From: Escherichia phage EP335
DNA length: 64,000 nucleotides
Sequence record: MG748548
Strand: one strand, 5' to 3'
Shown here: piece after piece, positions 39,914 to 53,579 of the stretch
Numbering within the stretch: the stretch's first letter is position 1
Layout of the letters: every line of letters begins with the position of its first letter
The notes under the pieces: model-generated
Databases searched by the model: none
The model's input: the letters and a program-made list of their open reading frames with translations, nothing else
What the model was told of the DNA's origin: nothing
Position numbers and translations under genes: made by a program

Positions 39914-41131
39914 TTAAAAGTTTACTGCTTCACCATCAACGGTAGTTACTGATGCAAGACGACGAACACGGCCAATCTGTTCACGACTGATTGGAGTATT
40001 CCAACCAGAGCGATAGAAGTTGCGACCACAGAAGAACACAACAACATTAGAAGCAATCCGTCCGTAGTTACGATCAGGGTGATTGATGTTAGCAAGATAA
40101 TAACCACGGGTCAAGTTTGCATTTTCGTTGATATGCCGAGCATTTGGTGCAGTTGTTTCAGCTTGCATCATTTCAGGAACATCTTCTACGATAGGCTCAA
40201 CCGTAGGTTCATCACCAGCTAAAGCAAAGTTCTCATCAGCAGCCTCTTCTGCATCATCTTCCAGCTCCACAGTTTCCTGAATAACTGGCAGAGGGTATGC
40301 TACACGATACTCAGGGTTTTGACCACGGAGAGATTCAACATACTGCAAGAAGTTGTGCTGGTAAGTTTCCAGAGTTGTACCAGTCAGGCCCGGAGCGGTA
40401 TTAACTTCTAACACCCACGCTTCCTCACCTTTACTGATAAGATCAACAGCACCAAAGTTAAGACCGAGTGCTTGTACTGCTTTGTGCGCTTGAATTAGAA
40501 CCTGATCAGGTGGTGAATCATTAAAAGAGTTGGAATAAACCCAACCAGTGTGGTGATTACGAACATCTTCACGATAGTCAGGGTTATCACGATACCCATT
40601 ACGACGAATCTTCTTCTGGACGTAAGTAATAACACCTTCAAAAACATGCACACGCCATTCACGACGTGGACCAGTGATTGCTTTTGTATACAGAGGAGCC
40701 TCAGCAACACCCTCACGAGGAAGACGAACAGTGATGCCTTCACCAGAGTGACCATTAAGTACACCACGTTCGTAAACAATACTGTTTTGGTTCCAGTTAA
40801 GTGCTTCATCTCGGTTAGTGGTATACTCAACAGTCTTGACTTCCGCAAGACGCATGGCATTGAAAGCTGCAACCTTGTTAGCCGCACGATTCAATGCTGC
40901 TACGTTGTTCAGAACCGTTGCACCTTCGAAGAAGGATTCTTGATAACGACGGTTTCCATAGTTGATAATCACGTCACCAGAACGAGCACGGAATCGGCTG
41001 GTTCCATCAGACAGAAGAGCCATTGCGTTGGCATTGATTCGGTTGTCACGGAGATGTTGATTCAAGCTGGATACCAGAGCATTAACAGAATCAGAAGGGC
41101 CATAAGGGAGAACACGGATACGAGTAGTCAT
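39914..41131 (-). CDS. ATP-grasp domain ligase
   Basis: WVLEVNTAPGL matches the ATP-grasp E-x-N-x-x-PG loop; 405 aa. Confidence 0.7.
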   Translation of the reverse strand: MTTRIRVLPYGPSDSVNALVSSLNQHLRDNRINANAMALLSDGTSRFRARSGDVIINYGNRRYQESFFEGATVLNNVAALNRAANKVAAFNAMRLAEVKTVEYTTNRDEALNWNQNSIVYERGVLNGHSGEGITVRLPREGVAEAPLYTKAITGPRREWRVHVFEGVITYVQKKIRRNGYRDNPDYREDVRNHHTGWVYSNSFNDSPPDQVLIQAHKAVQALGLNFGAVDLISKGEEAWVLEVNTAPGLTGTTLETYQHNFLQYVESLRGQNPEYRVAYPLPVIQETVELEDDAEEAADENFALAGDEPTVEPIVEDVPEMMQAETTAPNARHINENANLTRGYYLANINHPDRNYGRIASNVVVFFCGRNFYRSGWNTPISREQIGRVRRLASVTTVDGEAVNF

Positions 41132-41133
41132 TT

Positions 41134-41367
41134 TTAGATACCTTTAAGTTTAAGAATTTCGTTGCGAGTACGTTGGATACGTTCTTCAAGAGTATGATAA
41201 TCAAAGATGCACATCTCTTCTGCTTCATCAGAAGGTGCATCCATTAAACCCATAGCAATCGGATACACCTTTCGCTGTTCCGTTGTCATGTCCTGTAGCC
41301 GGAGTCGTTGATACTCCAGCAGGGTAATTTTCGGCTTGTTAGTTTCCTTGCTTGACATGAGGCTCAA
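41134..41367 (-). CDS. Hypothetical protein
   Basis: 77-aa ORF. Confidence 0.4.
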   Translation of the reverse strand: MSLMSSKETNKPKITLLEYQRLRLQDMTTEQRKVYPIAMGLMDAPSDEAEEMCIFDYHTLEERIQRTRNEILKLKGI

Positions 41368-41572
41368 CCTTGATACCTTTCAGTTTCACATAGTCAGCCA
41401 GCACGTTGTTAATAACTGTTGGGAAAGGAATCTCAACAGGTGCATTAACTAACCCACCAATACCCTCTTGCATCCACTTCTGGATTGCACGAAGGTTATC
41501 ACATCCTGTGCTTGTCATTGGAATACGGCGAGTGGTTACAACGTTATCCAACATCATCTTACGAATTTCCAT
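41339..41572 (-). CDS. Hypothetical protein
   Basis: 77-aa ORF. Confidence 0.4.
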   Translation of the reverse strand: MEIRKMMLDNVVTTRRIPMTSTGCDNLRAIQKWMQEGIGGLVNAPVEIPFPTVINNVLADYVKLKGIKVEPHVKQGN

Positions 41573-41582
41573 AATACACCTC

Positions 41583-43601
41583 TTAATTATGACCTTTACA
41601 GTGCACTGAATCGCACACCACTTGATTGGTATTGTTTAGTGTGCAGAGTTCTGCATCACGCCACGGAATCTTTTTAAAACAGACTGCACAAAACCCAAGA
41701 GTAGACCAGAGGGCTTTTGTGAAGGTTGCTGATCGGTTTCCATCGAAGGACGCAACTGTTCTGGTAATTGAGACTTTTGACTCACGAAAGGTTTCCGCTG
41801 CTGGAGCGGGTTCCTCCTTTGGGGTAGTCACTGCAATAGCATAAACACCACCCCAACGCTTCTCAATGTAAGCACCGAACACATCTTCCAGAGTGATTTC
41901 ACTCTTACGTTTGGTTGAGGATTCCATGACAATCATGTTGTCCAGAATCTTTTGATCAACACGAAGAGCTACTTCAGGACGTCGAGCACTTGTTGTATCA
42001 ACATACTTGGTCCAAACATAACCCTCTTTCAGAGTGACTTGAGTTGCTTGCTTCTTTGCTTTATTAGCACAGATTTTACAAACATCGTCACCACGAAGTT
42101 TACTGAACTCTTCATCAAATTCAAAGTCAGACTTCACTTCGCCGCACACTGAACAAACGCCGATAGGAATCTCATCCTCTTCAACGTCTTCCACTTGCTT
42201 CTGGATAGAATCAAAACAAGCTTTATGCCAATATGCTTGGTATGCGAAGATCGCACTTGGTGCTTCTTTCCAGTCAATGTGCTTATCACATCCACCACAA
42301 TCACCGTGGGAATGGGCTTCCCAGAACTTACGAGTGATAGTCACCCCATTCTTGCTGACAAAACTATCCTCTGCATCAAAAGGGATATCATCATCGAAAT
42401 CAGCTGTAGTGCTTTCCGGCTCCTTTTTCGACAAGTCAAAGAAGTGACCAGAGATCAACACCAAACGAATCATGCTATTAACTTCAGAGATACAGCCAAC
42501 CGTACCACGGTAAACCATATGCTTGTTCTTAAGAGCAGCTTCGTAATCAGTTTGCAGGATGTTATGAACATCACCCTCAATATACTCTTGAGCTTTGTCA
42601 TCATAAATATAACCAACCATCTTACCGCGATCGGTATCTTTATAACAAACAAACTCGTGAGGAATAATATCAACCTGCATATCACGACGGACATCAACAC
42701 CTTTGTCAGAGGCGATCTTGTTTTGTTTCAAGATTGCTTCACGACGACGTACATCACCTGCGGTTACGCCGGGCTTTCTTTGCTCGTCGCTGTTCCCGTT
42801 TACGTAACTTTTTGTCACGCTTGAGTGATTGTTGCTGTAGCTGTTCGAGTAATAACTTCCCCAACGCGTTGCTACCGTAAAAACCGGGAGTTCATGTACG
42901 ACCTCCTCTACCAAAGTCATCTTGTTGTCAGAAACATCAAAGATGTACTCTGTACCGACTTTACACTCAAAGTGCTCATCAATTCGGTTCTTGTGGCTCT
43001 TAGAACGCTGAAGAATCCACATTAGCATCGCTTCTTCTGAAGCACCAAACCATGAAGTTCCCAGACGGGCCAGATGGAAAGGACGTTCATCGTTACGAAT
43101 GATGTGAAGACGGTTATCACTTGCATCATGCCAGATTAGAGTGAATGCACCATCCAACTTCTGAATAGTCTCTGCTGCACCAATCTTGTTAATAGAGTGG
43201 CAGATGTTCTCACTATCAACCTCAAAAGCCTTACTGTCAGGCAGAAGGTCTTGATCAACTAAGGTTCCGTTATGAACCAGAGTAATATTTCCGTGAGAGA
43301 ATGGGTGAGCGTTACGTGAGTTAATAGCGCCTTTCGTAGCATGTCGGCTGTGACCAACAATCCATGAAGGAGGCACTGTGTAATTAGTAAGGCCAGTTGT
43401 CAGCTCGGTGTACTCTTTCTGTAACATGAAAGCATAGGAAGGCAGTGCTTCTTTGTAAGAGAACACAGATCTTTCGCTTTTACGCTGACCGAAAATACCA
43501 GTTGAGTGTTGACCACGAAATACACCAGCATAAAGAAGCTGGTTGTAAATATCTAAGTCATAACTTGAGAGGCTTCCACCTGCTAATACGATACCACAAA
43601 T
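41583..43601 (-). CDS. Class II (Ntn-hydrolase) glutamine amidotransferase domain protein with Cys-rich C-terminal extension; probable non-canonical ATT start
   Basis: Frame stays open 45 codons above the track start; first codons after the in-frame TAG are AAA ATT TGT GGT ATC (K-I-CGIV..., classic Ntn Cys1 context); AGGTGG sits 8 nt upstream of ATT; GHSRHATKG...NAHPF...LVHNG follows. Confidence 0.65.
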   Translation of the reverse strand: MCGIVLAGGSLSSYDLDIYNQLLYAGVFRGQHSTGIFGQRKSERSVFSYKEALPSYAFMLQKEYTELTTGLTNYTVPPSWIVGHSRHATKGAINSRNAHPFSHGNITLVHNGTLVDQDLLPDSKAFEVDSENICHSINKIGAAETIQKLDGAFTLIWHDASDNRLHIIRNDERPFHLARLGTSWFGASEEAMLMWILQRSKSHKNRIDEHFECKVGTEYIFDVSDNKMTLVEEVVHELPVFTVATRWGSYYSNSYSNNHSSVTKSYVNGNSDEQRKPGVTAGDVRRREAILKQNKIASDKGVDVRRDMQVDIIPHEFVCYKDTDRGKMVGYIYDDKAQEYIEGDVHNILQTDYEAALKNKHMVYRGTVGCISEVNSMIRLVLISGHFFDLSKKEPESTTADFDDDIPFDAEDSFVSKNGVTITRKFWEAHSHGDCGGCDKHIDWKEAPSAIFAYQAYWHKACFDSIQKQVEDVEEDEIPIGVCSVCGEVKSDFEFDEEFSKLRGDDVCKICANKAKKQATQVTLKEGYVWTKYVDTTSARRPEVALRVDQKILDNMIVMESSTKRKSEITLEDVFGAYIEKRWGGVYAIAVTTPKEEPAPAAETFRESKVSITRTVASFDGNRSATFTKALWSTLGFCAVCFKKIPWRDAELCTLNNTNQVVCDSVHCKGHN

Positions 43602-43675
43602 TTTCTAATCCACCTGAAGGGTAAACCCTTTCATCTAATTAACCTTTAGTTGTGCCCCTTTCGAGGCACCCATTG

Positions 43676-44776
43676 TTACAGCAGTCGTTCTAACTGAATT
43701 TCCAAGTGATCTGGAATATATTCAGTGACGTTGTTATCGGAGACGCCAGATTCACGCATCATGTTGAGCATGCTACGAATCTGTCCTTCTGTTGCTTCAC
43801 GAGTTTCACTAATCTCTGTTTCATACAGAGCCATGATCTCGTTATGAACATCTTGAGCATTACCACGGACATATCCGAGGAAGCCATAGAAGTCAGACAT
43901 ATCACGAAGGGATACAACTACCGACCCACTATTATCAAGAGTTTGTAAACGAATACGCCCAACCTGACGGACAGAACGATTACGACAGAACAGGATATCA
44001 CGAGCCAGACGATAACCACTATCAAGATCTTCGTGTCTTGGGGTGTAGTCTAGAGGTAGGTGAGGGAGCATAGGGTCAAAACGAACCCTGTTAAGCATCT
44101 CAACAAACTCTTCATTGTCCATCTCTGCATTTTCAACTGCTAATTTCTTAAGAACCAAGAAGCGGTTTACCAGATTTAACAGCTGACCTTTCTTCCACTT
44201 AGGCTCTGAGATACGGAACTCAACAGAACCGAACTGAGCCAGAGGAAGTAGGTTAAGTGATGTGTACTTATCCCAACGATCAACAATGTGTCGGAAGAAG
44301 TTCTCACCTTCGTAGTTAAATGCTTCAGAAGCATTCATTACTTGAGCCTGCACTACCGCAAAAGCAGGACAGAAATTACTACGGTAACGGTGATAACCAG
44401 AGCACTTAAACATCAATGCTTCATAGAAAGTCCACCCAAGGATAACTTTCTTAACGATATTGCTATCAGCATCTCGCATATCCATATGAACGTGAGTGGA
44501 ACAGCGCCAAGTCCCTTCTGCTTCGGACTCCATCACTGCCTCACTCAGATTGTTGATAGCGTCAAACAGTTCTACACCATTGTAAGGGCGAGAACAGACC
44601 ATTTCACATCCGTTGCGAAGCGAGCCATCCTCTGTACATTCCCACATATCTGCTTCGATATGATCGTCACCTTCAAGCTCCAGCTCAATACCAATACCGC
44701 ATTGGAATGCGATACTCGGATGTGCTTCACTCAGACGATTACTACGGTATCCAAAAGCTTGCGCTACAGTTGTCAT
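43676..44776 (-). CDS. Amidoligase (GCS2/YbdK-like carboxylate-amine ligase family)
   Basis: N-terminal GIGIELELEG and later STHVHMD resemble GCS2-type amidoligase blocks. Confidence 0.55.
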   Translation of the reverse strand: MTTVAQAFGYRSNRLSEAHPSIAFQCGIGIELELEGDDHIEADMWECTEDGSLRNGCEMVCSRPYNGVELFDAINNLSEAVMESEAEGTWRCSTHVHMDMRDADSNIVKKVILGWTFYEALMFKCSGYHRYRSNFCPAFAVVQAQVMNASEAFNYEGENFFRHIVDRWDKYTSLNLLPLAQFGSVEFRISEPKWKKGQLLNLVNRFLVLKKLAVENAEMDNEEFVEMLNRVRFDPMLPHLPLDYTPRHEDLDSGYRLARDILFCRNRSVRQVGRIRLQTLDNSGSVVVSLRDMSDFYGFLGYVRGNAQDVHNEIMALYETEISETREATEGQIRSMLNMMRESGVSDNNVTEYIPDHLEIQLERLL

Positions 44777-45387
44777 AACGACTCCACTAACTCCACAGTG
44801 TATTGGTTAAAATCACTTTGAATATGCTTGAACACATCAAGCAGTTGTACGGTCTGACGACCACGGCTGTCATGTCCAGCACCGAGAAGCACGCGACCAA
44901 CGTGTGCTCCTTTATAATAAACAAGACCATCGGAAGGGTTGATGAAGATAAAGCGAGTCAACAAACCTTCAAAAGATGGATTAAACAGGTTATAAACCAT
45001 CTCACCGGAGATGTTACGACCAAGAGAAGTTACGCCACGGAGTTTGTTACCCATCAACCCCTTAGCTCGCTGACGAACTGGATTGATATGGGTCCAACTT
45101 ACCATGTTACGACCATGTTGAAGATAACCAACATCAGGGGATTCCAGAATCAGGTTAGGGTTGAACACTCCAATCTGAACTGTTGTACGGTTAAACCCTG
45201 AGTCTGTTTTAACCCAACGCTCTGCTTCGAACATCAAAGCCATCTCTGCTTCGTGAGAGAAGTCATCACGAGAGAACTCGCCTTGTTGGAATACGTTCAT
45301 AACAAACAATGGGATGTTTAAGTTCCCACGTCTTTCAGCAATCCATGTCCCACAATAGTAATGAGAGAAGTCAGTTACTAAGCTCAC
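44773..45387 (-). CDS. Hypothetical protein inside the amidoligase cluster
   Basis: 204-aa ORF coupled to both neighbours. Confidence 0.45.
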   Translation of the reverse strand: MSLVTDFSHYYCGTWIAERRGNLNIPLFVMNVFQQGEFSRDDFSHEAEMALMFEAERWVKTDSGFNRTTVQIGVFNPNLILESPDVGYLQHGRNMVSWTHINPVRQRAKGLMGNKLRGVTSLGRNISGEMVYNLFNPSFEGLLTRFIFINPSDGLVYYKGAHVGRVLLGAGHDSRGRQTVQLLDVFKHIQSDFNQYTVELVESL

Positions 45388-45396
45388 GATAACCCC

Positions 45397-46284
45397 TTAC
45401 GCTACCTGTAAACGTTTCAAGAACACATCTGCTTCACGAACATCGTTGGTGTTGATGATCTGGTGCAGCTTTTCAATCGGAAGGCGAGAGTGGAGGCCCA
45501 TCAAGAACTCCATGTCGCTGTTTTGTACAACCTTGTCAACTTGATCATACACAAATTGACGATCTTCTTTCTTGCCAATCCAGAAGTTTGACAGAGAGCG
45601 ATACTCAATGCCATAAGGTTTGTAACGGATTGCGGATGCTTTACCGTATAGCTCTTTACGACGAGCATCACCGTCCATCAGAACAGCAGGCAATGACAGG
45701 AAGTAATCACACAGAACGCCCAGCATCATCTGAACCTTCTTATTCACATCCAGAGAGCCAGTGACACCGATATGCACATGACCGCCTGCTGTACGCAAGC
45801 CCTTGTTCTCTGAAGTTGGGGAAGCATTCTTTTGACCAGTGAATGCGTTGAAGTCTGGAGTACAACCAAACACGAAAGCGGACGGATGGAATGATTCCAA
45901 TTCTTCTTTAGAGAAGATATGAGAACTTACACCCAGAGCCGCTTCCATGTCCTGTTTCTTCAGAACTTCGTTGGTAAGATCAATACCACGCTGAACGTTG
46001 TCATTAAACGCTTCAAAACCTTGTTGTGGGTTGATATCAAATTCAGCAAGAACGTTGTCTTCTTGGAGACGAACATCCTTAGCCAGATCGATTTTATTTT
46101 CTTTAGAACAGCCCAGCTTTCCAGCAACAGAGGTGATGATGCCAGAAGAAGTACGAACAAACATTTCAGGGTCAGTGCCGATTAAAAAGATGCGCTTAGT
46201 CATTGTAGTATTCCACCAATTCTTTAAAGAGGGATGTGATTGTTTCTTTGTTGCTCTCTGTACTAGAGTCACAACGACTTTCAA
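45397..46284 (-). CDS. Second amidoligase-like protein (GCS2-like)
   Basis: IGTDPEMFV and GGHVHIGV in positions analogous to the first amidoligase. Confidence 0.5.
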   Translation of the reverse strand: MKVVVTLVQRATKKQSHPSLKNWWNTTMTKRIFLIGTDPEMFVRTSSGIITSVAGKLGCSKENKIDLAKDVRLQEDNVLAEFDINPQQGFEAFNDNVQRGIDLTNEVLKKQDMEAALGVSSHIFSKEELESFHPSAFVFGCTPDFNAFTGQKNASPTSENKGLRTAGGHVHIGVTGSLDVNKKVQMMLGVLCDYFLSLPAVLMDGDARRKELYGKASAIRYKPYGIEYRSLSNFWIGKKEDRQFVYDQVDKVVQNSDMEFLMGLHSRLPIEKLHQIINTNDVREADVFLKRLQVA

Positions 46285-53503: not shown

Positions 53504-53579
53504 TGGTGCGCCCTACAGGATTCGAACCTGTAACCAATAGCTTAGAAGGCTACTGCTCTATCCGTTGAGCTAAGAGCGC
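53504..53579 (-). tRNA. tRNA-Arg (anticodon UCU), CCA encoded
   Basis: Reverse complement folds as a canonical cloverleaf: acceptor GCGCTCT/AGGGCGC, D-arm GCTC-AACGGATA-GAGC, anticodon arm GTAGC-CTTCTAA-GCTAT, T-arm ACAGG-TTCGAAT-CCTGT, then A-CCA. Confidence 0.9.

What the first reader, a model, noticed from the sequence alone, without database searches (positions are those of the whole stretch)
43464..43607. Glutamine amidotransferase appears to initiate at an ATT codon placing the catalytic Cys at position 2
The frame of ORF 41583..43466 stays open 45 codons further upstream and, right after an in-frame TAG, reads AAA ATT TGT GGT ATC GTA... (K-I-C-G-I-V-L-A-G-G). CGIV is the canonical N-terminus of Ntn-type amidotransferases, where Cys1 must follow the initiator Met directly. 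No ATG, GTG or TTG is available, but AGGTGG lies 8 nt upstream of ATT. Starting at the track's GTG would delete the nucleophile and the first beta-strand.
Basis: seen in the sequence. Interest (0 to 1): 0.6.

Follow-up and report, generated by a model that had tools for sequence, protein, structure and literature searches.

The report
ATT start codon of phage amidotransferase
This phage enzyme gene almost certainly starts at the rare codon ATT so that its catalytic cysteine sits at the protein's very tip; phiEco32's own database record already annotates that start, but the same ATT/ATC trick recurs in roughly one in seven members of this widespread phage enzyme family.

Summary
On the minus strand the sequence reads AGGTGG-ATTAGAAA-ATT(43601-43599)-TGT-GGT-ATC-GTA, with an in-frame TAG two codons before the Cys and no ATG/GTG/TTG in between.

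- **The upstream segment is coding.** The 45 codons above the ORF-track GTG are under purifying selection. They supply the invariant Cys1-Gly2 and first strand of a class-II (Ntn) glutamine amidotransferase (Pfam, a confident AF2 model, Foldseek hits to GlmS/PurF).
- **It is not a base-call error.** All 95 sequenced phiEco32-like phages keep ATT inside a ~57-nt leader with no substitutions in the ten sequences compared. Aeromonas phage BUCT695 keeps ATT too.
- **It is not new as an annotation.** phiEco32 (phi32_83), SU10 and the BASEL phages already start this CDS at the ATT.
- **What I add.** ATT/ATC directly before the Cys recurs in several lineages, an estimated ~15% of the family and more than GTG+TTG. 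It usually sits behind a strong GGAGG SD with an 8-nt spacer, often the identical AGGAGGATTAGAAA-ATT. Gene callers truncate these genes.
- **In phiEco32-like phages** a 9-codon in-frame uORF with its own RBS stops 3 nt before the ATT. This is the geometry of the E. coli thrS-infC junction, which suggests weak, IF3-sensitive initiation fed partly by reinitiation. That part is inferred, not shown.

The parts
41583..43601 (-). Full glutamine amidotransferase CDS as it should be drawn: ATT start 43601-43599, stop TAA 41585-41583. It encodes 672 codons including the initiator; the mature protein is 671 aa and begins with Cys.
   Evidence: It has the same length and start as the Bas89 CDS (2019 nt) and the same start as phiEco32 phi32_83.
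43599..43601 (-). ATT, the proposed initiation codon (decoded by initiator tRNA as fMet).
   Evidence: It is the only near-cognate start between the in-frame TAG and the Cys. It is present in every clade sequence read.
43596..43598 (-). TGT, the catalytic Cys1 nucleophile codon.
   Evidence: C1 and G2 are invariant in alignment A1. The AF2 model starts strand 1 at residue 2. Foldseek hits are GlmS/PurF/ASNS/EgtC.
42879..43598 (-). N-terminal class-II (Ntn) glutaminase domain, about 240 aa.
   Evidence: Pfam GATase_6 53.3 bits (cut-off 27) and GATase_7 28.6 bits (cut-off 25). AF2 pLDDT 88.7. Foldseek E ~1e-13 to the GlmS glutaminase domain 1xff.
43467..43598 (-). The 44 codons (Cys1..Ser44) lost if the gene is started at the ORF-track GTG (43466).
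   Evidence: pN/pS 0.16-0.32 at pS 0.5-0.8, the same regime as the downstream codons. The segment contains invariant C1, G2, R28, G29, G34.
43610..43615 (-). SD2, AGGTGG, 8 nt upstream of the ATT. It lies inside the uORF.
   Evidence: Duplex energy with the anti-SD is -5.9 kcal/mol. BUCT695 has AGGCGG.
43605..43607 (-). In-frame TAG: the stop of the uORF, 3 nt before the ATT (UAG-AAA-AUU).
   Evidence: The same GAT TAG AAA ATT TGT GG occurs in distant family members. In L161, L180 and L241 the upstream gene proper ends at this TAG.
43605..43634 (-). 9-codon uORF, ATG AAA GGG TTT ACC CTT CAG GTG GAT TAG (MKGFTLQVD*), in frame with the GATase.
   Evidence: It is retained (MKGLTLQAD*) in Aeromonas phage BUCT695.
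43642..43647 (-). SD1, AAAGGT, 7 nt upstream of the uORF ATG, within 'CTAAAGGTTAAT tag ATG'.
   Evidence: The same RBS type precedes real genes at window 47141, 50550 and 56342.
43617..43630 (-). Small hairpin AAGGG-TTTA-CCCTT inside the uORF.
   Evidence: dG -5.4 kcal/mol. The stem is kept and only the loop changed (TTAA) in BUCT695. There is no covariation, so function is unproven.
43594..43648 (-). Invariant leader / translation-initiation region, about 55 nt from SD1 to TGTGG.
   Evidence: Zero substitutions among 10 clade sequences whose CDS has pS 0.5-0.8. It is >=98.4% identical over 64 nt in 95 phage records. It is about 90% identical to BUCT695, where the CDS is 57% identical at nucleotide level.
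43652..43669 (-). GC-rich hairpin GTGCCTC-GAAA-GGGGCAC just after the amidoligase stop codon. It has no U-tract.
   Evidence: dG about -12 to -14 kcal/mol in three clade members, with compensatory stem changes (GUGCCUC/GGGGCAC vs GCGCUCU/AGGGCGC). The terminator consensus scan did not call it.
43464..43466 (-). GTG used by the mechanical ORF list and by the KBNP1711 RefSeq annotation. It is not the real start.
   Evidence: Starting here removes the nucleophile and strand 1.

Best explanation
The gene is a class-II (Ntn) glutamine amidotransferase of a phiEco32-like coliphage, and it is translated from the non-canonical codon AUU at 43601-43599. A 30S subunit positioned by the AGGUGG Shine-Dalgarno 8 nt upstream pairs initiator fMet-tRNA with AUU. 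Deformylase and methionine aminopeptidase then expose Cys1, the obligatory N-terminal nucleophile. AUU is a weak start that IF3 discriminates against, so enzyme output is kept low and probably responsive to the state of the host initiation machinery.

In phiEco32-like phages the start is embedded in an invariant leader. A 9-codon in-frame uORF with an ordinary phage RBS terminates at UAG, 3 nt before the AUU. This is the same stop-3nt-AUU geometry as the E. coli thrS-infC junction. Ribosomes finishing the uORF therefore probably reinitiate at the AUU and add to de novo initiation.

Shown here: the reading frame, the family, the conservation, and the recurrence of ATT/ATC starts in the family. 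Inferred: that AUU is physically the initiation codon, the contribution of the uORF, and IF3 sensitivity.
For: - **Anatomy**: TAG-AAA-ATT-TGT, with AGGTGG 8 nt upstream.
- **The N-terminal 45 codons are coding**: pN/pS 0.16-0.32. C1/G2/R28/G29/N110-G111/D128 are invariant.
- **Family and fold**: Pfam GATase_6/7. AF2 pLDDT 88.7 with strand 1 at Cys1, and Foldseek to GlmS/PurF/ASNS/EgtC.
- **The protein is made in infection**: SU10 gp85, 9 peptides (PMC4281155).
- **ATT is conserved**: in all phiEco32-like sequences read and in BUCT695. The leader is >=98.4% identical in 95 records.
- **Family census**: 93 distinct viral loci gave ATG 73, ATT 15, ATC 2, TTG 1, and no GTG directly before the Cys.
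- **Sampled 'truncated' gene calls**: 6 of 7 hide ATT/ATC and 1 hides TTG.
- **SD strength**: ATH loci outside the clade have stronger SDs (-8.6 vs -6.2 kcal/mol, p=3e-6) at a constant ~8-nt spacing. Many share the exact AGGAGGATTAGAAA-ATT-TGT-GG although the proteins are <40% identical.
- **The uORF RBS** is the phage's normal RBS type.
- **infC precedent**: UAA-GGU-AUU translation is roughly equal parts reinitiation and de novo initiation, and AUU is 6-8x weaker than AUG (PMC3592434). AUU/AUC are the IF3-discriminated codons (PMC5499595).
Against: - There is no direct protein N-terminus, toeprint or ribosome-profiling evidence.
- The SD in this clade is only moderate (-5.9 kcal/mol), and BUCT695 weakens it further to AGGCGG.
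- Canonical out-of-frame TTG and GTG triplets overlap the site (ATTTGTGG) and could compete for ribosomes.
- The leader is invariant, so no covariation or synonymous-site test can separate uORF coding, RNA structure and protein-binding constraints.
- Predicted leader structure is not significantly more stable than shuffles (z = -1.0).
- In BUCT695 the uORF lacks an SD.
- Across the family, ATH starts are on average further from the upstream gene than ATG starts (median 29 vs 3 nt). Coupling is therefore not a general requirement.
Confidence: 0.85

Rival explanations
1. Amber read-through makes a propeptide. Translation starts at the uORF ATG (43634) and reads through the UAG, giving a precursor MKGFTLQVD-X-KI-Cys... 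The 12-residue propeptide is then removed autocatalytically, as in B. subtilis PurF.
For: The uORF is in frame and has a good RBS. L077 has an uninterrupted in-frame ATG 12 codons upstream (MTVFIRLGDEKI-C), the same length as the window's leader peptide and sharing F-9, D-4, K-2 and I-1. L005/P0003 reads GTG ACT AAA ATT TGT with an SD placed for the GTG. Propeptide-bearing Ntn amidotransferases exist (B. subtilis PurF, from general knowledge; its structure 1ao0 is among the hits).
Against: The window has no suppressor tRNA, only tRNA-Arg(TCT). At least 8 other ATH lineages have an in-frame stop 2-8 codons before the Cys and no upstream in-frame ATG ORF. The SD is always positioned for the ATH, not for an upstream start. 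Both uORF differences in BUCT695 are non-synonymous. Natural E. coli hosts generally lack amber suppressors (general knowledge).
Confidence: 0.05
2. The protein really starts at the downstream GTG 43466 (as in the ORF track and KBNP1711 RefSeq) or at an internal ATG (as in SU7). It would then lack the nucleophile, and the upstream similarity would be a decaying remnant.
For: These are the first canonical starts. Several GenBank records annotate the gene this way.
Against: The 45 upstream codons are under the same purifying selection as the rest of the domain. They contain the invariant Cys1/Gly2/Arg28/Gly29 and the first beta-strand and helix of the fold. No SD precedes the GTG. A truncated domain would lack the catalytic residue that defines the family.
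Confidence: 0.03
3. The ATT is a sequencing error, or the gene is a recently inactivated pseudogene.
For: ATT differs from ATG by one base. More distant homologues have ATG-TGT.
Against: The same ATT and the same leader occur in independently sequenced phages from many laboratories and in metagenomes. There is strong purifying selection. The protein was detected by MS in SU10. Every exception in the census is ATT/ATC/TTG rather than a random ATG mutant.
Confidence: 0.01
4. AUU is the start, but the invariant leader is not a coupling device. Its conservation would reflect something else: a binding site for a phage or host RNA-binding translational repressor, an SD-sequestering switch, a 5'-end stabilising hairpin of a transcript that begins near the uORF ATG, or a DNA-level element.
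For: Nucleotide-perfect conservation over ~55 nt exceeds what an SD, a start codon and a 9-codon peptide need. BUCT695 replaces SD1 with TAAATGTAATA, which resembles the phiEco32 gp36 promoter element tAATGTAtA (transcription start 6-8 bp downstream; PMC8948821). That would place the 5' end at about the uORF ATG. The T->C change in BUCT695 turns a U.G into a C-G pair in a weak hairpin pairing SD2 with AUU-UGU.
Against: No motif copies of the leader exist elsewhere in the window beyond ordinary RBS-like matches. Predicted structures are weak. No candidate binding protein was identified.
Confidence: 0.3

Closest known systems
E. coli infC (IF3) AUU start at the thrS-infC junction; also pcnB AUU
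   Same: It has a non-canonical AUU (AUC in some species) start, an SD upstream, and an upstream ORF stop codon followed by a 3-nt gap and then AUU (UAA-GGU-AUU vs UAG-AAA-AUU). The start codon is conserved across orthologues. The start region is A/U-rich. Expected behaviour is low efficiency, IF3 discrimination, and roughly half of initiation by reinitiation (PMC3592434, PMC5499595).
   Different: The gene product here is not IF3, so there is no obvious autoregulatory loop. The upstream ORF is a dedicated 9-codon mini-ORF rather than a full gene. The second codon is constrained to be the catalytic Cys. IF3 sensitivity was not tested.
Class-II (Ntn) glutamine amidotransferases: GlmS, PurF, AsnB, EgtC
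   Same: It has the N-terminal Cys nucleophile (CGIV...), the conserved Arg-Gly, Asn-Gly and Asp positions, and the alpha-beta-beta-alpha glutaminase fold.
   Different: Those enzymes are made from AUG-UGY starts or from a propeptide. The C-terminal ~430 aa here has no Pfam match and contains several Cys-X2-Cys pairs. It is not an isomerase, PRT or synthetase domain. The acceptor substrate is unknown.
B. subtilis PurF / glutamate synthase propeptide-processed Ntn amidotransferases
   Same: They need a free Cys1. A short (11-12 residue) N-terminal extension is conceivable here from the in-frame uORF and is uninterrupted in L077.
   Different: Here an in-frame TAG interrupts the putative propeptide, and no suppressor tRNA was found.
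Phage amidoligase / ATP-grasp / COOH-NH2 ligase / GATase-II gene module (predicted peptide-ligase or metabolite-synthesis systems; Iyer et al. 2009, cited from memory; listed in LUZ24-like phages in PMC3890496)
   Same: The same neighbours are present in the window: ATP-grasp 39914-41131, amidoligase 43676-44776, COOH-NH2 ligase around 45397-46284. They are also present in the distant loci.
   Different: This concerns the function of the module rather than the start codon. No biochemical function has been shown for it in any paper I could find.

Membership tests
Class-II (Ntn) glutamine amidotransferase | Catalytic Cys is residue 1 of the mature protein, directly after the initiator Met or exposed by propeptide cleavage | tested here: met
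   TGT is the codon immediately after the only possible initiation codon. Cys1-Gly2 are invariant and 98/120 homologues start M-C-G. This is conditional on ATT initiation, which is inferred.
Class-II (Ntn) glutamine amidotransferase | Significant match to curated family profiles | tested here: met
   Pfam GATase_6 53.3 bits (cut-off 27) and GATase_7 28.6 bits (cut-off 25). GATase_4 at 20.2 bits is below its cut-off of 23.
Class-II (Ntn) glutamine amidotransferase | Ntn alpha-beta-beta-alpha sandwich fold with the nucleophile at the start of strand 1 | tested here: met
   AF2 pLDDT 88.7, pTM 0.86, strand E2-7. Foldseek hits GlmS 1xff, PurF 1ao0/1ecf, ASNS and EgtC at E 1e-13..1e-10, prob 1.00.
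Class-II (Ntn) glutamine amidotransferase | Conserved glutamine-binding and oxyanion residues (Arg, Asn-Gly, Asp) | tested here: met
   R28, G29, H83, R85, T88, N110-G111 and D128 are invariant in the 41-sequence alignment. Equivalence to GlmS/PurF residue numbers is from memory and was not aligned residue by residue.
Class-II (Ntn) glutamine amidotransferase | Glutaminase activity coupled to an acceptor (synthase) domain | not testable with these tools
   The C-terminal ~430 aa has no Pfam hit. There are no PDB sequence hits for the N-domain by phmmer.
AUU/AUC-initiated bacterial genes (infC type) | No canonical in-frame start between the upstream stop and residues essential for function; AUU/AUC at the expected position | tested here: met
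   TAG AAA ATT TGT. The same holds in >=8 other lineages.
AUU/AUC-initiated bacterial genes (infC type) | Shine-Dalgarno at functional spacing from the AUU | tested here: met
   AGGTGG + 8 nt. In other lineages GGAGG + 8 nt, mean -8.6 kcal/mol vs -6.2 for ATG loci.
AUU/AUC-initiated bacterial genes (infC type) | Start codon conserved among orthologues despite single-step access to AUG | tested here: met
   ATT is present in every phiEco32-like sequence read and in BUCT695, while synonymous sites are near saturation. ATT/ATC alternate in other lineages.
AUU/AUC-initiated bacterial genes (infC type) | Upstream ORF stop 3 nt before the AUU (thrS-infC junction), allowing reinitiation | tested here: met
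   The uORF UAG-AAA-AUU geometry is present. Real upstream genes end at the same TAG in L161, L180 and L241. Only the geometry is shown; reinitiation itself is not.
AUU/AUC-initiated bacterial genes (infC type) | Experimentally determined N-terminus / IF3-dependent repression | not testable with these tools
   SU10 proteomics detected the protein but used a shorter model and reports no N-terminus. No paper in the library discusses this start.
Propeptide-processed Ntn amidotransferase (B. subtilis PurF type) | Uninterrupted ORF from a canonical start through a short propeptide to the Cys | tested here: not met
   An in-frame TAG lies at codon -3, and there is no suppressor tRNA in the window.

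The most novel reading that the evidence does not exclude
The ATT/ATC start is not an isolated oddity. It may be an ancient, selected translational-control module of this phage amidotransferase family: a portable initiation region (AGGAGG-AUUAGAAA-AUU-UGU-GG, with an in-frame stop 3 nt before the start) retained or re-acquired across proteins that are <40% identical. It would make synthesis of a potentially harmful glutamine-hydrolysing enzyme weak, dependent on upstream termination and sensitive to IF3, so that the phage reads out the host's initiation capacity. In phiEco32-like phages this would be elaborated into a dedicated uORF-hairpin leader that has been frozen at every nucleotide.
Probability: 0.25. 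Interest if true: 0.6.

Novelty: new member of a known kind. Interest (0 to 1): 0.4.

Why it matters
- **Practical consequence.** Automatic gene callers that allow only ATG/GTG/TTG cut the catalytic nucleophile off this enzyme. KBNP1711 RefSeq, SU7, BUCT695 and most of the 22 of 120 metagenomic homologues that do not begin MCG are affected, since 6 of the 7 checked hide an ATT/ATC start. Those database entries describe a dead enzyme.
- **Biological consequence.** A widespread phage enzyme family appears to use AUU/AUC about as often as ~15% of the time, more than GUG and UUG together. The strong SDs look compensatory, and the initiation region is conserved. That would make it one of the larger natural collections of non-canonical bacterial start sites. 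It offers a tractable system for asking why a phage would want IF3-discriminated, reinitiation-assisted translation of an early enzyme.
- **Limits.** The bare fact of an ATT start in this gene is already in GenBank for phiEco32. The mechanism belongs to a known kind (infC/pcnB-type AUU initiation).

Tried and rejected
- **Sequencing error:** rejected by conservation in 95+ records and in metagenomes.
- **Pseudogene or GTG start:** rejected by pN/pS and the invariant residues.
- **Leader as a phage gp36 promoter:** TTAAAGGTTAAT does not match tAATGTAtA and is the phage's ordinary RBS context. A promoter-like element does occur at this position in BUCT695, ECO319P1 and other ATG-start relatives, but I could not test it.
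- **Suppressor tRNA for the TAG:** none in the window.
- **Frameshift or hop into the frame:** the +1 and +2 frames upstream have no start codon before the site, and there is no take-off/landing codon match (manual reading). Rejected.
- **Significant RNA structure in the leader:** z = -1.0. The hairpins are weak and there is no covariation because the leader is invariant. Inconclusive.
- **General dependence of ATH starts on a closely abutting upstream gene:** not supported (median gap 29 nt vs 3 nt for ATG starts).
- **Searches that failed:** the metagenome search with alignment A1 failed for lack of a conserved stretch. PDB sequence search of the N-domain gave nothing. The phiEco32 genome paper (PMC2587145) is not held. 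Literature searches for an ATT start in this gene found nothing.
- **Tree:** the NJ tree has long deep branches, so the exact number of independent ATG<->ATH transitions is uncertain.
Full report
**1. What is in the sequence.** Read on the minus strand, the region is: TAA (amidoligase stop, 43678-43676); a GC hairpin GTGCCTC-GAAA-GGGGCAC (43669-43652); AAAGGT (43647-43642); ATG (43634-43632) AAA GGG TTT ACC CTT CAG GTG GAT TAG (43607-43605); AAA; ATT (43601-43599); TGT (43598-43596) GGT ATC GTA TTA GCA GGT GGA...

- AGGTGG (43615-43610) ends 8 nt before the ATT.
- The mechanical ORF begins at GTG 43466, 45 codons downstream.
That mini-ORF is in frame with the enzyme and has its own ribosome-binding site.

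**2. The upstream 45 codons are part of the enzyme.**

- Pfam finds the class-II glutamine amidotransferase core at residues 77-190 (GATase_6, 53 bits).
- Of 120 metagenomic homologues, 98 begin M-C-G and align colinearly with the window's CGIVLAGG.
- In a 41-sequence alignment, Cys1, Gly2, Arg28, Gly29, His83, Arg85, Asn110-Gly111 and Asp128 are invariant.
- An AlphaFold model of residues 1-266 is confident (pLDDT 88.7), with the first strand starting at residue 2.
- Foldseek matches the GlmS glutaminase domain, PurF, asparagine synthetase and EgtC at E 1e-13 to 1e-10.
- Between the window and four clade members, codons 1-45 show pN/pS 0.16-0.32 while pS is 0.5-0.8. This is the same regime as codons 46-240.
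- A start at the GTG would delete the nucleophile, so it can be dismissed.

**3. It is not an error, and it is not new as an annotation.**

- The window is a phiEco32-like (Gordonclarkvirinae) coliphage, closest to KBNP1711 and Bas89.
- Every clade sequence I read has the same ATT (KBNP1711, Bas86/89/94, SU7, NC-B, ECBP2, phiEco32, SU10, five IMG/VR contigs, five metagenome contigs).
- A 64-nt leader query is >=98.4% identical in all 95 E. coli/Shigella records.
- phiEco32's own record (NC_010324, phi32_83), SU10 (SU10_085) and the BASEL phages already start the CDS at this ATT.
- KBNP1711 RefSeq uses the GTG, and SU7 and BUCT695 use internal ATGs.
- I found no paper that discusses the start. 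The phiEco32 genome paper is not held.
- SU10 proteomics detected the protein (9 peptides) but with a shorter model and no N-terminal information.

**4. The same solution recurs across the family.**

- In 93 distinct viral loci, the codon immediately before the catalytic Cys is ATG in 73, ATT in 15 (10 from the phiEco32 clade) and ATC in 2. TTG occurs once and ATG-TGC-TGT once, and GTG never sits directly before the Cys.
- Cultured phages add one GTG (APT65) and several ATG starts.
- Every ATT/ATC case has an in-frame stop 2-8 codons upstream and no canonical start in between.
- I traced seven of the 22 homologues that do not begin M-C-G back to DNA. Six hide ATT/ATC and one hides TTG. This suggests roughly 15% ATT/ATC starts in the family.
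- A rough NJ tree places ATT/ATC starts in at least four separate positions.
- Outside the phiEco32 clade, ATT/ATC loci have markedly stronger SDs than ATG loci (mean -8.6 vs -6.2 kcal/mol; Mann-Whitney p=3e-6; lineages are not independent). The spacing is nearly constant at 8 nt.
- At least nine very divergent members share exactly AGGAGGATTAGAAA-ATT-TGT-GG. The window's version differs by one base (AGGTGG).
- A strong, precisely spaced SD in front of an ATT or ATC that directly precedes an invariant Cys, seen repeatedly, is what functional non-canonical starts should look like. Decayed genes would not show it.

**5. The phiEco32-type leader.**

- From SD1 to TGTGG (~55 nt) there is not one substitution among ten clade sequences whose synonymous sites are near saturation.
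- The hairpin just upstream does vary, with compensatory changes.
- The uORF's RBS (TTAAAGGTTAAT-tag-ATG) is the type used by real genes in the window. It does not match the gp36 promoter consensus tAATGTAtA (PMC8948821).
- Aeromonas phage BUCT695 belongs to a different family and is only 51% identical in the N-domain and 57% at CDS nucleotide level. It keeps the uORF (MKGLTLQAD*), the AAGGG/CCCTT stem and TAG-AAA-ATT-TGT. Its SD2 is AGGCGG, and SD1 is replaced by a promoter-like TAAATGTAATA.
- ECO319P1, an ATG-start relative, reads ...AATGTAAATAGATGAAAGGAtttttgtATGTGT. The 'ATGAAAGG' that opens the uORF is therefore the ancestral SD region.
- The phiEco32/BUCT695 lineage has about 25-30 extra nucleotides (3' hairpin arm, SD2, TAG-AAA-ATT) in place of 'spacer + ATG'.
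- Predicted structures are weak and cannot be tested by covariation.

**6. Mechanism.**

- The best-supported reading is initiation at AUU by fMet-tRNA, with Met excision exposing Cys1.
- The stop-3nt-AUU arrangement equals the E. coli thrS-infC junction (UAA-GGU-AUU). For that junction, reporter work attributes about half of translation to reinitiation and half to de novo initiation, and finds AUU 6-8x weaker than AUG (PMC3592434).
- AUU/AUC are the codons IF3 discriminates against (PMC5499595).
- I therefore propose weak, IF3-sensitive initiation fed partly by ribosomes terminating at the uORF. In this clade the uORF would substitute for the very strong SD seen in other ATT/ATC lineages.
- Three distant loci in which the real upstream gene ends at the same TAG fit this idea.
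- Across the family, however, ATT/ATC starts are not closer to upstream genes than ATG starts. Coupling is therefore plausible for this clade but not a general rule.
- Read-through of the TAG, giving a 12-residue propeptide, cannot be excluded. It is unnecessary and poorly supported: there is no suppressor tRNA, other lineages lack an upstream in-frame ORF, and the SD is always placed for the ATT/ATC.

**7. Verdict.** As a bare fact it is already in GenBank, and mechanistically it belongs with infC/pcnB-type AUU starts. The parts I could not find documented are:

- the family-wide recurrence of ATT/ATC starts;
- the conserved initiation region;
- the compensatory SDs;
- the frozen uORF leader;
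- the systematic truncation of these genes by gene callers.

I rate the interest as moderate.

Noticed in passing
window 39914-46284 (minus strand): The GATase sits in a conserved module: ATP-grasp/RimK-like (39914-41131), two small ORFs, the GATase, an amidoligase (43676-44776), a hypothetical gene (44773-45387) and a COOH-NH2 ligase (~45397-46284). The same neighbours occur around very distant homologues and in LUZ24-like Pseudomonas phages. I found no biochemical function for the module.
   Followed up: partly
window 41586-42800 (minus strand), GATase residues ~270-671: The C-terminal ~400 aa has no Pfam match and carries several Cys-X2-Cys pairs (e.g. CGGCDKH, CSVCGE, CKICANK, CAVCFKK). 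Most homologues are only 380-460 aa, so the phiEco32-type protein has about 200 extra residues.
   Followed up: no
window 43652-43669 (minus strand): A GC-rich GNRA-type hairpin lies right after the amidoligase stop. Its stem covaries between clade members (GUGCCUC/GGGGCAC vs GCGCUCU/AGGGCGC), it has no U-tract, and the terminator scan does not call it. It may be an RNA-stability or processing element.
   Followed up: partly
L002 (Bas89) vs window 41339-41572 and 45397-46284: Bas89 carries HNH endonuclease genes absent from the window. One lies directly downstream of the GATase gene. One lies inside a two-piece (joined) COOH-NH2 ligase CDS, which looks like a homing-endonuclease intron.
   Followed up: no
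L154 (BUCT695), L158 (ECO319P1), L012, L038, L042, L043: 20-45 nt upstream of the GATase start: There is a shared motif TTTAAATGTAA(A/T)A resembling the phiEco32 gp36 promoter element tAATGTAtA. In the phiEco32 clade the homologous position has become the uORF's SD (TTTAAAGGTTAAT).
   Followed up: partly
L077 and L075 (IMG/VR contigs): Two related loci share the leader CTAGGAGATGAGAAA-AT(T/C)-TGT. L077 has an uninterrupted in-frame ATG 12 codons upstream (MTVFIRLGDEKI-C). L075 has a TAA in that stretch. This could be the remnant of an ancestral propeptide, or it could be chance.
   Followed up: partly
window 53504-53579 (minus strand): tRNA-Arg (anticodon TCT) is the only tRNA gene in the window.
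   Followed up: no
window 43597-43599 and 43595-43597 (minus strand): The Cys-Gly codons force canonical out-of-frame start triplets to overlap the ATT (ATTTGTGG contains TTG and GTG). These open short ORFs (13 and 4 codons in the window) that are not conserved in relatives. They could act as competing decoy starts.
   Followed up: partly
window 45397-46284 (minus strand): The mechanical ORF for the COOH-NH2 ligase starts at a TTG 27 codons upstream of the ATG used in the KBNP1711 annotation (807-nt CDS). The real start is probably the internal ATG (MTKRIFLIG...).
   Followed up: no
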